A DNA stretch of 64,000 nt from positions 1-64,000 of IMG/VR virus record IMGVR_UViG_3300009130_000012; one strand, 5' to 3'. Position 1 is the first letter of the stretch. The number at the start of each line of letters is the position of its first letter. Below the pieces are notes generated by a model. The model had not been told where the DNA came from, ran no database searches, and saw nothing but the letters and a program-made list of their open reading frames with translations. The position numbers and the translations under genes were made by a program. Positions 1,134-4,832 of this stretch are shown one piece after another. Source of the DNA: a virus.

Positions 1134-1382
1134 ATGCTAAAAAATAAAAAAACTAAAGATATTGCCGTGTTATTATTAACAATAACACTTTGTTTTATCC
1201 TAATACTAACAGTTATTGGTAGCGCCATTATGAATAATGATACTGGTGGTAAAATGGAGGAATTAATTGCCTTTATTTTAGGTTCTATTACTACCATCGT
1301 TGGTGAGTACATTCTACTACAATTAAAGCTTGGTCTTAAGGACGAAGAAAAAGAAGAGAAATCTAAAGAGATTGAGGAATAG
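1134..1382 (+). CDS. small two-TM membrane protein (holin-like topology)
   Basis: two hydrophobic segments followed by a charged tail (KDEEKEEKSKEIEE). Confidence 0.65.
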   Translation: MLKNKKTKDIAVLLLTITLCFILILTVIGSAIMNNDTGGKMEELIAFILGSITTIVGEYILLQLKLGLKDEEKEEKSKEIEE

Positions 1383-1459
1383 TGGGTCTGGAGGGAATTG
1401 AACCCGCATGTCACCAGTTACGCTTTCTACTGGTTATGAGCCAGAGGCGATACAGACCC
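1383..1459 (-). tRNA. tRNA with CAT anticodon (probably Ile2) and rearranged D-arm connectivity
   Basis: acceptor GGGTCTG/CAGACCC with A73; anticodon arm CTGG-CTCATAA-CCAG; T arm GCGGG-TTCAATT-CCCTC; D-arm-like AGCGTAACTGGT lies 3' of the anticodon arm. Confidence 0.8.
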
Positions 1460-1464
1460 TTAAG

Positions 1465-1546
1465 CACGGAAGAGTAGAGTCGAACTACTAGGGGTACGTT
1501 ACCCACGGTTTTGGAGACCGCTTATCTCACCAATGAAAGCTTCCGT
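1465..1546 (-). tRNA. tRNA-Trp(CCA) with long variable arm
   Basis: acceptor ACGGAAG/CTTCCGT with G73; GCGGT-CTCCAAA-ACCGT; variable stem GGGTA-ACG-TACCC; T arm AGTAG-TTCGACT-CTACT. Confidence 0.85.
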
Positions 1547-1548
1547 GT

Positions 1549-2457
1549 TTATTTATTATATTTTCTTTCCCATTTTCTAATCGCATTATCACTAACACCA
1601 TACTTTCTACCAGTACCTCTATAACCCAATTCTTTAATGTCTTCCAATAATACTTCATACGGTGGACGTTCTACTTTTCGTTGTGATAACGACATAGCTA
1701 TTTGTTTATTAGTCCTACCACCATTAACTCGCCTTTCTTCATCTAATTTAATTTTATTACGAGCTTGTCTACTAATATATTTTTCTATCGGATATACAAT
1801 ATACTTTTCATTCGAAATTATAGTTTCAGCTAAGATTTTTATTATCTCATCGGTTTTGTTTAAAACATTAGTTGCATGAAATCTAATGATTCTCCAACCT
1901 TCTTTATGTAAAAGTTTATCTTTTCTCTTATCCCTTTCCCTAACATCACTATTACCATGTTGACTCCCGTCTATTTCTATGGCTACCTTAATATCTACAA
2001 AAGCAAAATCTATAAAATAAGGAAACACACAATATTCTCTAACAATCTTAAATTTTTTATTATAGTCCAAATTTTCTAGCAACTCTTTAAAAATTTTTTC
2101 TGGGTAACTCATGTTTTTTTGTCTCCATGCGGTCTTATCTGGATTATTTCGCATGTACTCTAACCTTATCTCACGTAATTTAGCCTTTGTTTCATTACTA
2201 TGTTTAAAATTTTCACTATATAGTTCTCTACCTAATTTATTCGCTTCCTTAGTTGTCCGTTTTTTATTACCTATTATAGTAACGACTGACGATTTCCCAA
2301 TACTATATTTTTTAGCTAACTTATTTATCGATAAACCTTTATTTAGATAATCTGACATCACATCAGCACTAATAATCTGTATTTTATGACATGCTTTCTC
2401 ATGAGCAGCTAACCCACCCTTATTATTAAATGACTTATTACAATACCTACAATTCAT
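1549..2457 (-). CDS. free-standing homing endonuclease (DUF559/Vsr-like PD-(D/E)XK domain with Zn-finger, NUMOD3-like and HTH parts) inside the tRNA array
   Basis: CRYC...HEKAC; KHSNETKAKLRE; FIDFAF..KVAIEIDGSQH...DKRKD..L..EGWRIIRF; C-terminal GRKYGVSDNAIRKW. Confidence 0.85.
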   Translation of the reverse strand: MNCRYCNKSFNNKGGLAAHEKACHKIQIISADVMSDYLNKGLSINKLAKKYSIGKSSVVTIIGNKKRTTKEANKLGRELYSENFKHSNETKAKLREIRLEYMRNNPDKTAWRQKNMSYPEKIFKELLENLDYNKKFKIVREYCVFPYFIDFAFVDIKVAIEIDGSQHGNSDVRERDKRKDKLLHKEGWRIIRFHATNVLNKTDEIIKILAETIISNEKYIVYPIEKYISRQARNKIKLDEERRVNGGRTNKQIAMSLSQRKVERPPYEVLLEDIKELGYRGTGRKYGVSDNAIRKWERKYNK

Positions 2458-2521: not shown

Positions 2522-2606
2522 TACTGCCGATGGGGTTCGAACCCACACGTTCCATAAGGAACCCAGATTGAAAGTCTGGTTGCTTAACCAATTTGCATAC
2601 AGCAGC
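2522..2606 (-). tRNA. tRNA with Glu anticodon (TTC) on a long-variable-arm, Leu-like body
   Basis: GCTGCTG/CGGCAGT with A73; D arm TGC-AAATTGGTTAA-GCA; CCAGA-CTTTCAA-TCTGG; variable stem GTTCC-TTAT-GGAAC; GTGGG-TTCGAAC-CCCAT. Confidence 0.85.
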
Positions 2607-2709: not shown

Positions 2710-2783
2710 TGGAATAGGTGGGTCATGCTCCCACAACCCTCGGTGTGCAAAACCAAGGTACGAGCTACTTGTTTATCTACCCC
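2710..2783 (-). tRNA. tRNA-Ala(TGC) with non-canonical D and T loops
   Basis: GGGGTAG/CTATTCC with G3:U70 and A73 (Ala identity); TTGGT-TTTGCAC-ACCGA; T arm GTGGG-AGCATGA-CCCAC. Confidence 0.8.
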
Positions 2784-2795
2784 ATAATTTCATTG

Positions 2796-2866
2796 CGGTT
2801 CATAACGGTTATGCTCCGTTTCCTTCACGGTGACAGCGTGATATTCTACTATTATACTAATGAACC
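2796..2866 (-). tRNA. tRNA-Asp(GTC) with non-canonical T loop
   Basis: GGTTCAT/ATGAACC with G73; TCACG-CTGTCAC-CGTGA; AACGG-AGCATAA-CCGTT. Confidence 0.85.
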
Positions 2867-2903: not shown

Positions 2904-2976
2904 TGGTATGGGTTGGTACCGCCCCAACATATCTGGTTTTTCAGACCAGCGCATGAACTTTCATTGCTACCACACC
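2904..2976 (-). tRNA. tRNA-Phe(GAA) with non-canonical T loop
   Basis: GGTGTGG/CCATACC with A73; GCA/TGC D stem; CTGGT-CTGAAAA-ACCAG; GTTGG-GGCGGTA-CCAAC. Confidence 0.87.
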
Positions 2977-2992
2977 ATTAAATTTTAAACAT

Positions 2993-3026
2993 AAAAAAAC
3001 CCGACTAAATTTCTTCAGTCGGGTTT
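2993..3026 (-). terminator. attenuator terminator (3:4 hairpin) upstream of the tRNA array
   Basis: minus strand AAACCCGACTGAA-GAAA-TTTAGTCGGGTTT-TTTT, ending about 16 nt before tRNA-Phe. Confidence 0.88.
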
Positions 3027-3053
3027 CACACTACACAATCAATTTATACTAAA

Positions 3054-3143
3054 TCATTTATCGTAACGAACATATCCGACTGGACTGAAGCTATAATCCG
3101 CTTCGGCATAAAACCATTCAAATATGTTGTTAAATCTTTTCAT
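3054..3143 (-). CDS. 29-aa attenuator leader peptide MKRFNNIFEWFYAEADYSFSPVGYVRYDK
   Basis: ATG at 3143 to TGA at 3054; lies between a promoter and a terminator; codons 7-17 match the seven downstream tRNAs; contains segments complementary to the terminator 5' arm. Confidence 0.8.
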   Translation of the reverse strand: MKRFNNIFEWFYAEADYSFSPVGYVRYDK

Positions 3144-3994: not shown

Positions 3995-4756
3995 TTATCT
4001 TAAAACTTTTTTAACCGACCCATCACTATAAACTTCTATTACCATACCGCTAAAATCGTCTTGAACTTTTTGTCCTAATAAGTCATATATAGCGATTAAT
4101 TTTACTTCTTCCTTTTCTTCAATTTTATTACAAAATAAAATATCAAAAAACTCTGTTGTACCGTCGTAATCAGTTTGGTAAAGTCTATAATATCCATTCT
4201 GAGTTATAGGATATTCGTAATTGGTTACTTCTTGTGTGTTTCCTTGACCATATATTTCCCCTTTAGATACCCAAGTTATTCCATCAGTAGAATACTCAAT
4301 AGTAAAATGACTATTATTAATTTCAGCCCCTGTAGACCAGTTAATGGTTTTATCATTGCAGCTAAGTTCTATAAGCTCCACTGGTAAGGGTTGAACACAA
4401 TTTATGTCAACATAAGATAAGTTACCTGCACTTAAATAACCGTTACTATATGGGTAACCTTGACTAAGGTTATTAATATCGGTACAATTATTACAATGTC
4501 TATTTATATCAATAGAGTTATAGTTACCAGTAAAAGCACCTCCTATGGTTAATTTGGAGTTACACCCTAAAAGATTAATAGTTCCATAATTTGTTAAATT
4601 ACCAGTTAAAGTTAATTCGACATTATCACTTATATTAATTTCACCACCACTTAGATTAATATATGTTGACCAAGTGGTATTACTGGTAATGTTAGTGGTT
4701 TGTGATTTAGATATTGAACACGTAAAAACCAATAATAATAGTATTAATTTTTTCAT
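3995..4756 (-). CDS. secreted protein resembling Bacteroidetes T9SS cargo
   Basis: signal peptide MKKLILLLLVFTCSISKSQ; PLPVEL...WSTGAEINNSHFTIEYSTDG...YYRLYQTDYDG module; C-terminal YDLLGQKV...YSDGSVKKV. Confidence 0.75.
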   Translation of the reverse strand: MKKLILLLLVFTCSISKSQTTNITSNTTWSTYINLSGGEINISDNVELTLTGNLTNYGTINLLGCNSKLTIGGAFTGNYNSIDINRHCNNCTDINNLSQGYPYSNGYLSAGNLSYVDINCVQPLPVELIELSCNDKTINWSTGAEINNSHFTIEYSTDGITWVSKGEIYGQGNTQEVTNYEYPITQNGYYRLYQTDYDGTTEFFDILFCNKIEEKEEVKLIAIYDLLGQKVQDDFSGMVIEVYSDGSVKKVLR

Positions 4757-4832
4757 AATTGTTTTAATTAGCCGTTGGTAGTTTTATTATAAATACAAAG
4801 ATACGGCATTAATTTTTATATTACAACTATTT

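What the first reader, a model, noticed from the sequence alone, without database searches (positions are those of the whole stretch)
1383..1459. tRNA(CAT) with topologically rewired D-arm
Minus-strand sequence: GGGTCTG TA TCGC C TCTGG-CTCATAA-CCAGT AGAA AGCGT AACTGGTGACAT GCGGG-TTCAATT-CCCTC CAGACCC A. There is no D hairpin between the acceptor stem and the anticodon arm. A textbook 'A9-G10CGT-AACTGGT' D-stem 5' strand plus D-loop instead follows the anticodon arm, and its GCG can pair with the CGC just before the anticodon arm. The D stem would therefore enclose the anticodon arm, with the GG-containing D-loop running directly into the T arm. Inference: this is an internally permuted tRNA that may keep the L-shape with different strand connectivity. 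Scanners would probably mis-call it as D-armless or a pseudogene. The ATA codon in the leader supports an Ile2 role.
Basis: partly seen in the sequence, partly recalled or inferred. Interest (0 to 1): 0.88.

Follow-up and report, generated by a model that had tools for sequence, protein, structure and literature searches.

The report
Phage isoleucine tRNA with rewired D-arm
This 77-base gene of an uncultured marine phage is a conserved transfer RNA (anticodon CAU, most likely the isoleucine tRNA for AUA codons) whose D-arm pieces lie on either side of the anticodon arm, a layout that gene finders miss and that I found in no paper.

Summary
Window 1383-1459 (minus strand) has a 7-bp acceptor stem, an anticodon arm (CAU) and a canonical T-arm, but no D hairpin. 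A 3-bp helix (CGC 1449-1447 with GCG 1423-1421) encloses the anticodon arm. A D-loop-like strand (UAACUGGUGACAU) runs from it into the T-stem.

The gene belongs to a family found almost only in viruses: 134 distinct 77-mers collected here, with anticodons UAU, CAU and GAU. In all of them the long-range helix is paired (402 of 402 cells, 14 complementary triplet combinations). The rival local hairpin is not conserved. ARAGORN misses every member, and Rfam aligns this one at 29.3 bits with the D-arm deleted.

In tRNA-rich phages the rewired genes stand in for the missing canonical isoleucine tRNAs. The CAU form carries the G3-C70 pair that a published rule assigns to tRNA-Ile and not to tRNA-Met. 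Expression, charging, lysidine modification and three-dimensional shape are untested.

The scan has already noted this family many times on other DNA. I found no paper describing it.

The parts
1383..1459 (-). Whole rewired tRNA gene, 77 nt including discriminator A (1383). CCA is not encoded; the next base is C (1382).
   Evidence: Scores 93.7 bits with family model R1 (it is one of the training sequences).
1453..1459 (-). Acceptor stem, 5' strand (GGGTCTG). Pairs with 1384-1390. Contains G3-C70 and C5-G68.
   Evidence: All 7 pairs covary in the family.
1450..1452 (-). Junction U8 A9 plus an invariant U (analogue of position 22, facing U at 1420).
   Evidence: T8, A9 and T10 are invariant in A1 and A2. 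The U.U pair occurs in 132 of 134 sequences.
1447..1449 (-). Long-range helix, 5' strand CGC (analogue of D-stem 3' strand, positions 23-25).
   Evidence: 100% paired with 1421-1423 and all three pairs covary.
1429..1446 (-). C26 analogue (1446) and the anticodon arm: U.U plus a 4-bp stem and loop CUCAUAA. The anticodon CAU is at 1438-1436.
   Evidence: The stem covaries and is 99% paired.
1424..1428 (-). Conserved linker AGAAA between the anticodon stem and the 3' strand of the long-range helix.
   Evidence: NGAAA is present in 47 of 51 new hits of a scan that did not require it. The other four are three canonical tRNAs matched by chance and one member with AGGAA.
1421..1423 (-). Long-range helix, 3' strand GCG (analogue of D-stem 5' strand, positions 10-12).
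1408..1420 (-). Single strand U-AACUGGUGA-CAU. It resembles a D-loop (A14, A15, G18 G19, A21 analogues) and runs straight into the T-stem.
   Evidence: Motif TAAYYGGTNACAT is conserved in the family. Its role in the tRNA elbow is inferred.
1391..1407 (-). T-arm: 5-bp stem with one C.U mismatch, and a canonical loop UUCAAUU.
1384..1390 (-). Acceptor stem, 3' strand (CAGACCC).

Best explanation
This is a working elongator tRNA gene of an uncultured marine phage. It is the last gene of a minus-strand tRNA operon.

Its core is an internal permutation of the cloverleaf. The block 'D-stem 5' strand plus D-loop' (canonical positions 10-21) sits after the anticodon arm instead of before it. As a result, the D-stem equivalent is a 3-bp long-range helix that extends the anticodon arm. 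The D-loop-like strand, with its GG, runs directly into the T-stem, where it can still meet the canonical T-loop.

Shown here:
- the sequence;
- family conservation;
- covariation of all four helices;
- near-restriction to viruses;
- isoleucine-only anticodons (UAU, GAU, CAU);
- complementarity with canonical tRNA-Ile genes.

Inferred:
- the RNA is cut out by host RNase P and 3' processing enzymes;
- it receives CCA from the host enzyme;
- it folds into an L-shape;
- its C34 is converted to lysidine by the host TilS;
- it is charged by IleRS and reads AUA, a codon this AT-rich phage uses more often than AUG.
For: Structure:
- The long-range helix (alignment columns 11-13 with 37-39) is 100% paired. 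Every pair changes on both sides and none changes on one side only, in 61 distinct sequences and in 34 distinct CAU-type sequences.
- Over 134 distinct 77-mers, 402 of 402 cells are paired, in 14 triplet combinations. The search patterns left these positions free.
- RNAalifold predicts the same structure.
- Moving the 13-nt block back to its canonical place in silico raises ARAGORN detection from 0 of 92 to 90-91 of 92, against 40 of 92 when the block is shuffled.

tRNA hallmarks:
- A73, U8, A9, U33 and A37 are invariant, and the T-loop is canonical.
- C74 is nearly invariant. CCA is encoded in 14 of 155 cases, about six times the chance rate.

Function as tRNA-Ile:
- Anticodons in the family are UAU 80, CAU 34 and GAU 20.
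- In loci with at least 8 canonical tRNAs, rewired and canonical GAU exclude each other (counts 3/11/27/5, p=8e-5). Rewired UAU never co-occurs with canonical UAU.
- Kehishuvirus tikkala has 23 ARAGORN-called tRNAs but no canonical GAU. The unannotated rewired GAU fills that slot.

Ile2 rather than Met:
- The element has G3-C70 and C5-G68. Silva et al. 2006 report that G3/A3 and C70/T70 exclude tRNA-Met and tRNA-fMet.
- In the loci fetched here, rewired CAU genes have G3 or A3 in 27 of 34. Canonical CAU genes have C3-G70 in 30 of 59. Canonical Ile GAU/UAU genes have C3-G70 in 1 of 49.
- Loci with a rewired CAU carry a canonical UAU tRNA in 2 of 21, against 10 of 12 loci that have only a rewired GAU (p=4e-5).
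- The phage uses ATA at 26.8 per 1000 codons (35% of Ile) and ATG at 22.0.
- The operon's leader peptide contains ATA and no internal ATG.
Against: - There is no expression, processing, modification or charging data. No RNA run holds this DNA.
- Nearest-neighbour thermodynamics does not favour the long-range helix. It appears in the minimum-energy fold of only 13 of 92 members. In this element the family structure lies 5.7 kcal/mol above a sequence-specific alternative, in which CCAGUA pairs with UAACUGG.
- The T-stem has a C.U mismatch.
- Position 4-69 is U-A, not the C4-G69 that E. coli TilS requires.
- Neither this phage nor 34 other records with a rewired CAU encodes a TilS above the Pfam cut-off, so lysidine formation would depend on an unknown host.
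- Gap-filling is not strict. Streptomyces phage Jay2Jay has canonical Ile GAU and UAU genes as well as the rewired GAU. Two loci have both a rewired CAU and a canonical UAU.
- The co-occurrence counts use partial loci and related phages, so the p-values overstate independence.
- The ARAGORN control shows the de-permutation test is only moderately specific.
Confidence: 0.7

Rival explanations
1. Same rewired tRNA, but an elongator tRNA-Met. C34 stays unmodified, MetRS charges it, and it reads AUG.
For: - A CAU anticodon with A73 is by itself a good MetRS substrate (established knowledge).
- No TilS gene is in the phage or in 34 related records.
- Position 4-69 is U-A, not the C-G required by E. 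coli TilS.
- ATG is also frequent, at 22 per 1000 codons.
- Two loci hold both a rewired CAU and a canonical UAU.
Against: - G3-C70 is reported to exclude Met and fMet. In these phage loci it separates Ile genes from most canonical CAU genes.
- Rewired CAU and canonical UAU largely exclude each other.
- The leader peptide has ATA and no internal ATG.
Confidence: 0.17
2. Same secondary structure, but not a rebuilt D-arm. The RNA would be a D-armless tRNA, like mitochondrial tRNA-Ser(AGY), with an extended anticodon arm and a long floppy variable strand. The canonical core contacts would not form, and the shape would differ from the standard L. This concerns the 3D reading only and is compatible with function in translation.
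For: - Formally the RNA is a three-way junction.
- The helix has only 3 Watson-Crick pairs flanked by invariant U.U pairs, and a 5-nt AGAAA bulge interrupts stacking on the anticodon stem.
- Thermodynamics alone does not favour the helix.
Against: - The strand from position 8 to the anticodon loop has exactly the canonical number of nucleotides for positions 22-31.
- The moved block keeps the consensus A-GNN-U-AAYYGGU-N-A of positions 9-21.
- U8, the A14, A15, G18, G19 and A21 analogues, a U just before the T-stem (a candidate partner for A15) and a canonical T-loop are all conserved. A floppy linker would not need these.
- D-armless mitochondrial tRNAs have lost these motifs (review PMC7609411).
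Confidence: 0.2
3. A tRNA-like RNA that does not decode. It could be a decoy for host tRNA-cleaving defence nucleases, or a processing or regulatory element of the tRNA operon.
For: - Phage tRNAs are known to counter host tRNA-targeting defences (PMC10264068, PMC11555353; listed).
- Almost every tRNA in this operon is structurally odd.
Against: - Anticodons are restricted to the three isoleucine anticodons, with A73 and A37 invariant.
- The rewired genes replace missing canonical Ile genes in otherwise near-complete phage tRNA sets.
- C74 is conserved, and a full CCA is sometimes encoded.
Confidence: 0.07
4. A decayed tRNA pseudogene, or a chance resemblance.
For: - The Rfam score is borderline (29.3 against 29) and ARAGORN makes no call.
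- There is a C.U mismatch in the T-stem.
Against: - The same 77-nt architecture is found in hundreds of viral contigs from unrelated phage groups: Crassvirales, Streptomyces siphoviruses, marine and jumbo phages.
- Compensatory changes occur in every helix.
Confidence: 0.02

Closest known systems
Canonical bacterial and phage tRNA-Ile2 (anticodon CAU, C34 modified to lysidine by TilS; E. coli ileX type)
   Same: - CAU anticodon in a CUCAUAA loop, A73, a 7-bp acceptor stem and a canonical T-arm.
- G3-C70 and C5-G68, as in the tRNA-Ile(CAU) genes of Silva et al. 2006.
- Presumed role: reading AUA.
   Different: - There is no D hairpin between positions 9 and 26.
- The D-stem 5' strand and the D-loop lie after the anticodon arm.
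- The anticodon stem has 4 bp plus an invariant U.U.
- Position 4-69 is U-A.
- Modification and charging are untested.
D-arm-lacking mitochondrial tRNAs (mammalian tRNA-Ser(AGY), nematode tRNA-Ser; review PMC7609411)
   Same: - No local D hairpin.
- Three-way junction.
- Missed or down-scored by cloverleaf models.
   Different: - Those tRNAs are truncated and have lost the D-loop/T-loop contact motifs.
- This one is full length (77 nt), keeps the GG motif, U8, the A14 analogue and a canonical T-loop, and rebuilds a D-stem-like helix from distant strands.
- It is found in phages, not organelles.
Circularly permuted tRNA genes of the red alga Cyanidioschyzon merolae (Soma et al. 2007; my own knowledge, not checked here)
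   Same: The order of tRNA segments in the gene differs from the cloverleaf order.
   Different: - There the whole gene is circularly permuted, and processing through a circular intermediate restores a normal mature tRNA.
- Here the acceptor ends are in their normal places and the permutation is internal, so it should persist in the mature RNA.
allo-tRNAs with 8/4 or 9/3 acceptor/T branches (Mukai et al. 2017, PMC5389517)
   Same: - Non-canonical tRNAs found by metagenome mining, some in phages.
- UAU is among their predominant anticodons.
   Different: - allo-tRNAs keep a local D hairpin (long stem, tetraloop) and have a long variable arm and altered acceptor/T lengths.
- This RNA has the normal 7/5 branch, no D hairpin and no variable arm.
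Rewired-core phage tRNA family as noted earlier in this scan on other DNA (unpublished AI notes)
   Same: - Same 77-nt layout, same long-range helix and same motif.
- This element is a CAU-type member.

Membership tests
tRNA (Rfam RF00005 cloverleaf) | Score at or above the family gathering threshold | tested here: met
   29.3 bits against a gathering score of 29, only just passed.
tRNA (Rfam RF00005 cloverleaf) | 7-bp acceptor stem with a discriminator, 7-nt anticodon loop with U33 and a purine at 37, 5-bp T-stem with a UUCRANY loop | tested here: met
   All of these helices covary in homologs.
tRNA (Rfam RF00005 cloverleaf) | Local D-arm hairpin between positions 9 and 26 | tested here: not met
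   Only 5 nt lie between A9 and the anticodon stem. The Rfam alignment deletes 15 model positions there.
tRNA (functional definition) | Processed, given CCA, aminoacylated and used on the ribosome | not testable with these tools
   No RNA run holds the DNA. The only indirect support is the conserved C74 and the CCA sometimes encoded in the family.
Rewired-core phage tRNA-Ile family (this scan) | 3-bp helix enclosing the anticodon arm, NGAAA linker, and a U-AAYYGGU-N-ACAU strand entering the T-stem; 77 nt in all | tested here: met
   Every motif is present. Scores 93.7 bits with model R1, though it was a training sequence.
tRNA-Ile2 (lysidine type) | CAU anticodon with A73, and an acceptor stem of Ile type (G3 or A3 with C70 or T70; not the C3-G70 of Met/fMet) | tested here: met
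   The element has G3-C70. The rule is from Silva et al. 2006. It separates Ile genes from most CAU genes in the phage loci fetched here.
tRNA-Ile2 (lysidine type) | C4-G69 and C5-G68 (E. coli TilS determinants) | tested here: inconclusive
   The element has U4-A69 and C5-G68. 28 of 34 CAU-type relatives have C4-G69. The requirement differs between TilS types and the host is unknown.
tRNA-Ile2 (lysidine type) | A TilS enzyme available and C34 actually modified | not testable with these tools
   No PF01171 match in the phage, and none above the cut-off in 34 related records. A host TilS would be needed.
Initiator tRNA-fMet | C1-A72 mismatch and three G-C pairs at the bottom of the anticodon stem | tested here: not met
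   G1-C72 is paired, and the anticodon stem ends U-A, G-C, G-C. Criteria as.
D-armless mitochondrial-type tRNA | Loss of the D-arm together with loss of the D-loop/T-loop contact motifs; shortened molecule | tested here: not met
   The molecule is full length. The GG motif and a canonical T-loop are conserved.

The most novel reading that the evidence does not exclude
The cloverleaf strand order is not required for a working tRNA. Phages have evolved an internally permuted core that keeps the L-shape and stays a substrate for host IleRS, TilS, EF-Tu and the ribosome. They would keep it, together with the other structurally odd tRNAs of the same operon (class-II-like Glu and Trp; Phe, Asp and Ala with altered elbows), because the altered core escapes host nucleases that cleave tRNAs as an anti-phage defence.
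Probability: 0.2. Interest if true: 0.95.

Novelty: new variant of a known kind. Interest (0 to 1): 0.85.

Why it matters
All textbook cytoplasmic tRNAs share one strand connectivity. A natural, widespread and strongly conserved tRNA whose D-stem strands and D-loop are joined in a different order would show that the L-shaped core can be built from another topology.

Practical consequences:
- It gives a new scaffold for orthogonal tRNA engineering.
- It exposes a blind spot in annotation. ARAGORN missed 92 of 92 members tested here. 80 GenBank phage records hold a homolog; most of the roughly 80 listed rows have no annotation there, and one calls it tRNA-Leu.
- It changes phage tRNA inventories. 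Phages that seem to lack tRNA-Ile may in fact have one.

For this phage, it supplies a probable decoder for AUA, a codon the phage uses more than AUG.

The family occurs in cultured phages (Kehishuvirus tikkala and Streptomyces cluster BE phages), so the question can be tested directly at the bench.

Tried and rejected
- Local hairpin GCGT/ATGC, i.e. a D-armless tRNA with a variable-arm hairpin (close to Rfam's alignment, which places these bases in the variable region). Rejected: its second pair forms in 4 of 61 homologs and shows no compensatory change.
- Single-sequence folding. The minimum-energy fold is a sequence-specific alternative. It is not informative about the conserved structure.
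PF01171 has no match in this genome. In 34 records with a rewired CAU it has no match above the cut-off. One 17-bit match in G019 lies outside the locus that holds that record's tRNA.
- Expression. No RNA holder is listed for this DNA.
- Laying contigs from four DNA runs. This only showed 85-95% identical relatives of the tRNA in marine sediment and estuary metagenomes. It says nothing about transcripts.
- De-permutation test with ARAGORN. It works (0 to about 98% detection), but shuffled controls are still detected in 43-96% of cases, so it is supportive only.
- Strict gap-filling. Contradicted by Jay2Jay, which has canonical GAU and UAU genes as well.
- Search in cellular genomes. Only 3 MAG contigs matched in 185,579 species. 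One has the same length (362,763 bases) as an IMG/VR jumbo-phage contig and is probably the same phage.
- Literature. Six full-text searches and targeted look-ups in four papers found no description of this layout.
- No RNA 3D modelling tool was available.

Full report
**1. The observation**

From 5' to 3' it has:
- a 7-bp acceptor stem;
- U8 A9;
- U-CGC-C;
- an anticodon arm with a U.U pair, four Watson-Crick pairs and the loop CUCAUAA;
- AGAAA;
- GCG-U;
- AACUGGUGA-CAU;
- a T-arm with a canonical UUCAAUU loop and one C.U mismatch;
- the acceptor 3' strand and discriminator A.

There is no room for a D hairpin before the anticodon arm. ARAGORN finds four other tRNAs in the window but not this one. 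Rfam's tRNA model reaches 29.3 bits against a gathering score of 29. Its alignment deletes the D-arm (15 model positions against 4 nt) and places 18 extra nucleotides in the variable region.

The window is the first 64 kb of a 100,844-base IMG/VR virus record. It has 31.5% G+C. Seawater metagenomes of one study hold it.

**2. It is a member of a large, conserved family**

*First homologs.* A sensitive DNA search of GenBank phages found a homolog in the crAss-like Kehishuvirus 'tikkala'. It lies unannotated between tRNA-Trp and tRNA-Met. Homologs are also in about 40 Streptomyces phages. A later search with another member found 80 GenBank phage records, 77 of them Streptomyces phages. Most listed rows show no feature under the match. 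In phage EGole the same 77 nt are annotated as tRNA-Leu.

*Pattern scans of IMG/VR.* Three exact-pattern scans gave:

| Scan | Result |
|---|---|
| CAU-specific pattern | 54 contigs |

In the third scan, 47 of 51 new distinct hits still carried NGAAA. Of the other four, three were canonical tRNAs matched by chance and one was a family member with AGGAA.

*Overall count.* I collected 134 distinct 77-mers: anticodon UAU 80, CAU 34, GAU 20.

*Cellular genomes.* The same pattern matched only 3 contigs in one genome from each of 185,579 bacterial and archaeal species. All three are MAG contigs. One has exactly the length of an IMG/VR jumbo-phage contig. The family is therefore essentially viral.

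**3. The structure**

I tested two structures on an alignment of 61 distinct sequences (A1).
All three pairs change on both sides, with no one-sided change and no broken pair. The acceptor, anticodon and T stems covary as well.
- *The rival local hairpin (GCGT/ATGC in this element).* It fails. Its second pair forms in 4 of 61 sequences and shows no compensatory change.

The result repeats in the CAU subgroup alone (34 distinct sequences, A2). Over all 134 sequences, 402 of 402 cells are paired in 14 complementary triplet combinations. The search patterns left these six positions free, so the pairing is not an artefact of how the sequences were collected.

Also nearly invariant are U.U at both ends of the composite arm (132 of 134 and 128 of 134), U8, A9, the strand U-AAYYGGU-N-ACAU, the T-loop, A73 and C74.

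**4. What the layout means (inference from the known tRNA fold)**

- The strand from U8 A9 to the anticodon loop has exactly the ten nucleotides of canonical positions 22-31.
- The block after the anticodon arm matches the consensus of positions 9-21: A, G-N-N-U, A-A-Y-Y-G-G-U-N-A.
- A conserved U just before the T-stem could play the part of position 48, opposite A15.

So every part of the D-arm is present, but block 10-21 has moved from before position 22 to after the variable-loop position.

In the canonical fold the D-stem stacks on the anticodon stem, and strand 10-13 continues the direction of strand 39-44. Joining them in one long hairpin is therefore geometrically natural. A tandem duplication of segment 10-48 followed by loss of the outer parts would produce exactly this order.

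As a rough test I moved the 13-nt block back in silico. ARAGORN detection rose from 0 of 92 to 90-91 of 92. Shuffling the block gave 40 of 92, and weaker perturbations were mostly still detected, so the test is supportive only.

Against a simple picture, nearest-neighbour energies do not favour the helix. It is in the minimum-energy fold of 13 of 92 members. In this element the family structure lies 5.7 kcal/mol above a sequence-specific alternative. Tertiary contacts and modifications are not modelled by these energies.

**5. Function**

All anticodons found on this scaffold here are isoleucine anticodons, with A73 and A37 invariant.

*Complementarity with canonical genes.* In the 46 fetched loci with at least 8 ARAGORN tRNAs:

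| Anticodon | Both | Rewired only | Canonical only | Neither | p |
|---|---|---|---|---|---|
| GAU | 3 | 11 | 27 | 5 | 8e-5 |
| UAU | 0 | 12 | 12 | 22 | 0.02 |

. Tikkala has 23 ARAGORN-called tRNAs, including Ile(UAU) and two CAU genes, but no Ile(GAU). The rewired GAU fills the gap.

*Exceptions and caveats.* Jay2Jay has canonical GAU and UAU genes besides the rewired GAU, in a genome where many isoacceptors are duplicated. The loci are partial and the phages are related, so the p-values are generous.

*3' end.* C74 is almost invariant. CCA is encoded in 14 of 155 cases, against about 1.6% expected. This fits 3'-end maturation of a real tRNA.

**6. CAU: Ile2 or Met?**

For Ile2:
- Silva et al. 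2006 report that G3/A3 and C70/T70 exclude tRNA-Met and tRNA-fMet, which usually have C3-G70. They also report that C4-G69 and C5-G68 are frequent in tRNA-Ile(CAU). This element has G3-C70, U4-A69 and C5-G68.
- In the loci fetched here the 3-70 rule holds up:

| Gene class | Count |
|---|---|
| Canonical Ile GAU/UAU with C3-G70 | 1 of 49 |
| Canonical CAU with C3-G70 | 30 of 59 |
| Rewired CAU with G3 or A3 | 27 of 34 |
| Rewired CAU with C3-G70 | 5 of 34 |

- Loci with a rewired CAU have a canonical UAU tRNA in 2 of 21. Loci that have only a rewired GAU have one in 10 of 12 (p=4e-5; after removing duplicates, 2 of 14 against 7 of 8, p=0.0015). This suggests the CAU form occupies the AUA-decoder slot.
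- The phage uses ATA at 26.8 per 1000 codons (35% of Ile), more than ATG at 22.0.
The uORF has no internal ATG. This is suggestive, but it depends on an untested attenuator model.

Against Ile2:
- There is no TilS in this phage.
- None is above the cut-off in 34 other records with a rewired CAU.
- Position 4-69 is not C-G.

I put Ile2 at about three in four and Met at about one in six.

**7. Context**

The gene is the last of a minus-strand operon:
- leader uORF and a strong terminator (3027-2996);
- tRNAs Phe, Asp, an Ala-like gene, Tyr and Glu;
- a DUF559/Vsr-type endonuclease gene (1549-2457);
- Trp;
- this gene.

A convergent plus-strand ORF ends at 1382. Only one rewired gene is in the genome.

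**8. Comparison with what is known**

| Known class | How this RNA differs |
|---|---|
| D-armless mitochondrial tRNAs | It keeps full length and the elbow motifs. |
| Circularly permuted algal tRNA genes (my own knowledge) | Those mature to normal tRNAs. |
| allo-tRNAs | Those keep a D hairpin and have a long variable arm. |
| Canonical tRNA-Ile2 | It lacks the local D hairpin. |

Six full-text searches and look-ups in four papers found no description of this layout.

The scan's own notebook shows that this family was flagged many times before on other DNA, including CAU forms and arginine forms. Those are unchecked AI notes. I re-derived the covariation, the virus restriction and the gap-filling independently. 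I did not reproduce a TilS neighbour.

**9. Verdict**

- The gene is a real member of an undescribed, virus-borne class of tRNA with non-cloverleaf strand order. It is most likely tRNA-Ile2 for AUA.
- Expression, modification, charging and 3D shape are open. They can be tested in cultured phages that carry relatives.

Noticed in passing
window 1464-1546 (-): tRNA with anticodon CCA and G73, but a class-II-like body: 83 nt with a 5-bp variable arm. ARAGORN calls it Trp. Rfam matches only tRNA-Sec, at 41.2 bits (below the gathering score of 47). Its counterpart at the same position in Kehishuvirus tikkala is an ordinary 71-nt tRNA-Trp.
   Followed up: partly
window 2522-2606 (-): tRNA with the Glu anticodon UUC on a class-II-like body: 85 nt, a 5-bp variable arm and A73. 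It is also the subject of another first-reader note on this window.
   Followed up: partly
window 2710-2783 (-): A probable seventh tRNA, missed by both ARAGORN and Rfam. It has anticodon UGC (Ala), G3.U70, a 7-bp predicted anticodon stem, 18 unpaired nt where the D-arm should be, and a T-loop AGCAUGA without UUC.
   Followed up: partly
window 2904-2976 (-) and 2796-2866 (-): tRNA-Phe(GAA) and tRNA-Asp(GUC) have T-loops without the UUC motif (GGCGGUA, AGCAUAA) and D-loops without GG. This looks like an altered elbow. Counting these, six of the seven tRNAs in this operon are structurally non-canonical.
   Followed up: no
window 3054-3143 (-) with terminator 2996-3027 (-): A 29-codon uORF followed by a strong terminator lies just upstream of the tRNA operon. 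Its run IFEWFYAEADY is the only run of 10 or more codons, in six frames of the whole 100.8-kb genome, built only from codons for the operon's tRNAs. It may be an attenuator that senses those tRNAs.
   Followed up: partly
window 1549-2457 (-): A 302-aa DUF559/Vsr-like endonuclease with a weak N-terminal C2H2 zinc-finger match sits inside the tRNA cluster. It is probably a homing endonuclease, like SegB in the T4 tRNA region.
   Followed up: partly
L004, L044, L140, L148, L165, L169, L174 and others: Many phages with rewired tRNAs carry pairs of tRNAs with the same anticodon (Glu, Asn, His, Met, Ile, Cys, Trp). One of each pair is of normal length and the other is 84-95 nt. This suggests a second class of long-variable-arm versions of class I tRNAs.
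   Followed up: no
L091 3937-4013: The 3' half of a rewired tRNA (from GAAA to the acceptor end) is preceded by unrelated AT-rich sequence instead of the 5' half. It is a broken, split or interrupted gene.
   Followed up: no
L015 872-950; L044 310-387; L012 1331-1407: More divergent rewired genes with other linkers, for example CAUUAACAA instead of AGAAA. One has an A-U pair where the family has the invariant U.U. The family is therefore broader than my search patterns.
   Followed up: partly
L096 4729-4823: ARAGORN calls a 95-nt 'tRNA-Ile(tat)' that overlaps a 77-nt rewired gene (4746-4822). This is an example of how such genes get wrong boundaries when they are detected at all.
   Followed up: no
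L120 (JBAZIW010000001.1): A contig filed as a Candidatus Paceibacterota MAG has the same length (362,763 bases) as IMG/VR contig 3300029288_000055 and carries the same rewired tRNA. It is probably a jumbo phage binned as a bacterium.
   Followed up: no
window 1350-1463, seen in run X5: One marine-sediment contig related to this region skips 1350-1463, which is the rewired tRNA, and has 102 other letters there instead. The slot seems to be exchangeable between relatives.
   Followed up: no
L002 960-1481; L235 1-281: In the Streptomyces phages the rewired tRNA lies directly downstream of a gene annotated as nucleotidyltransferase. This is worth checking as a possible CCA-adding or tRNA-repair enzyme.
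   Followed up: no
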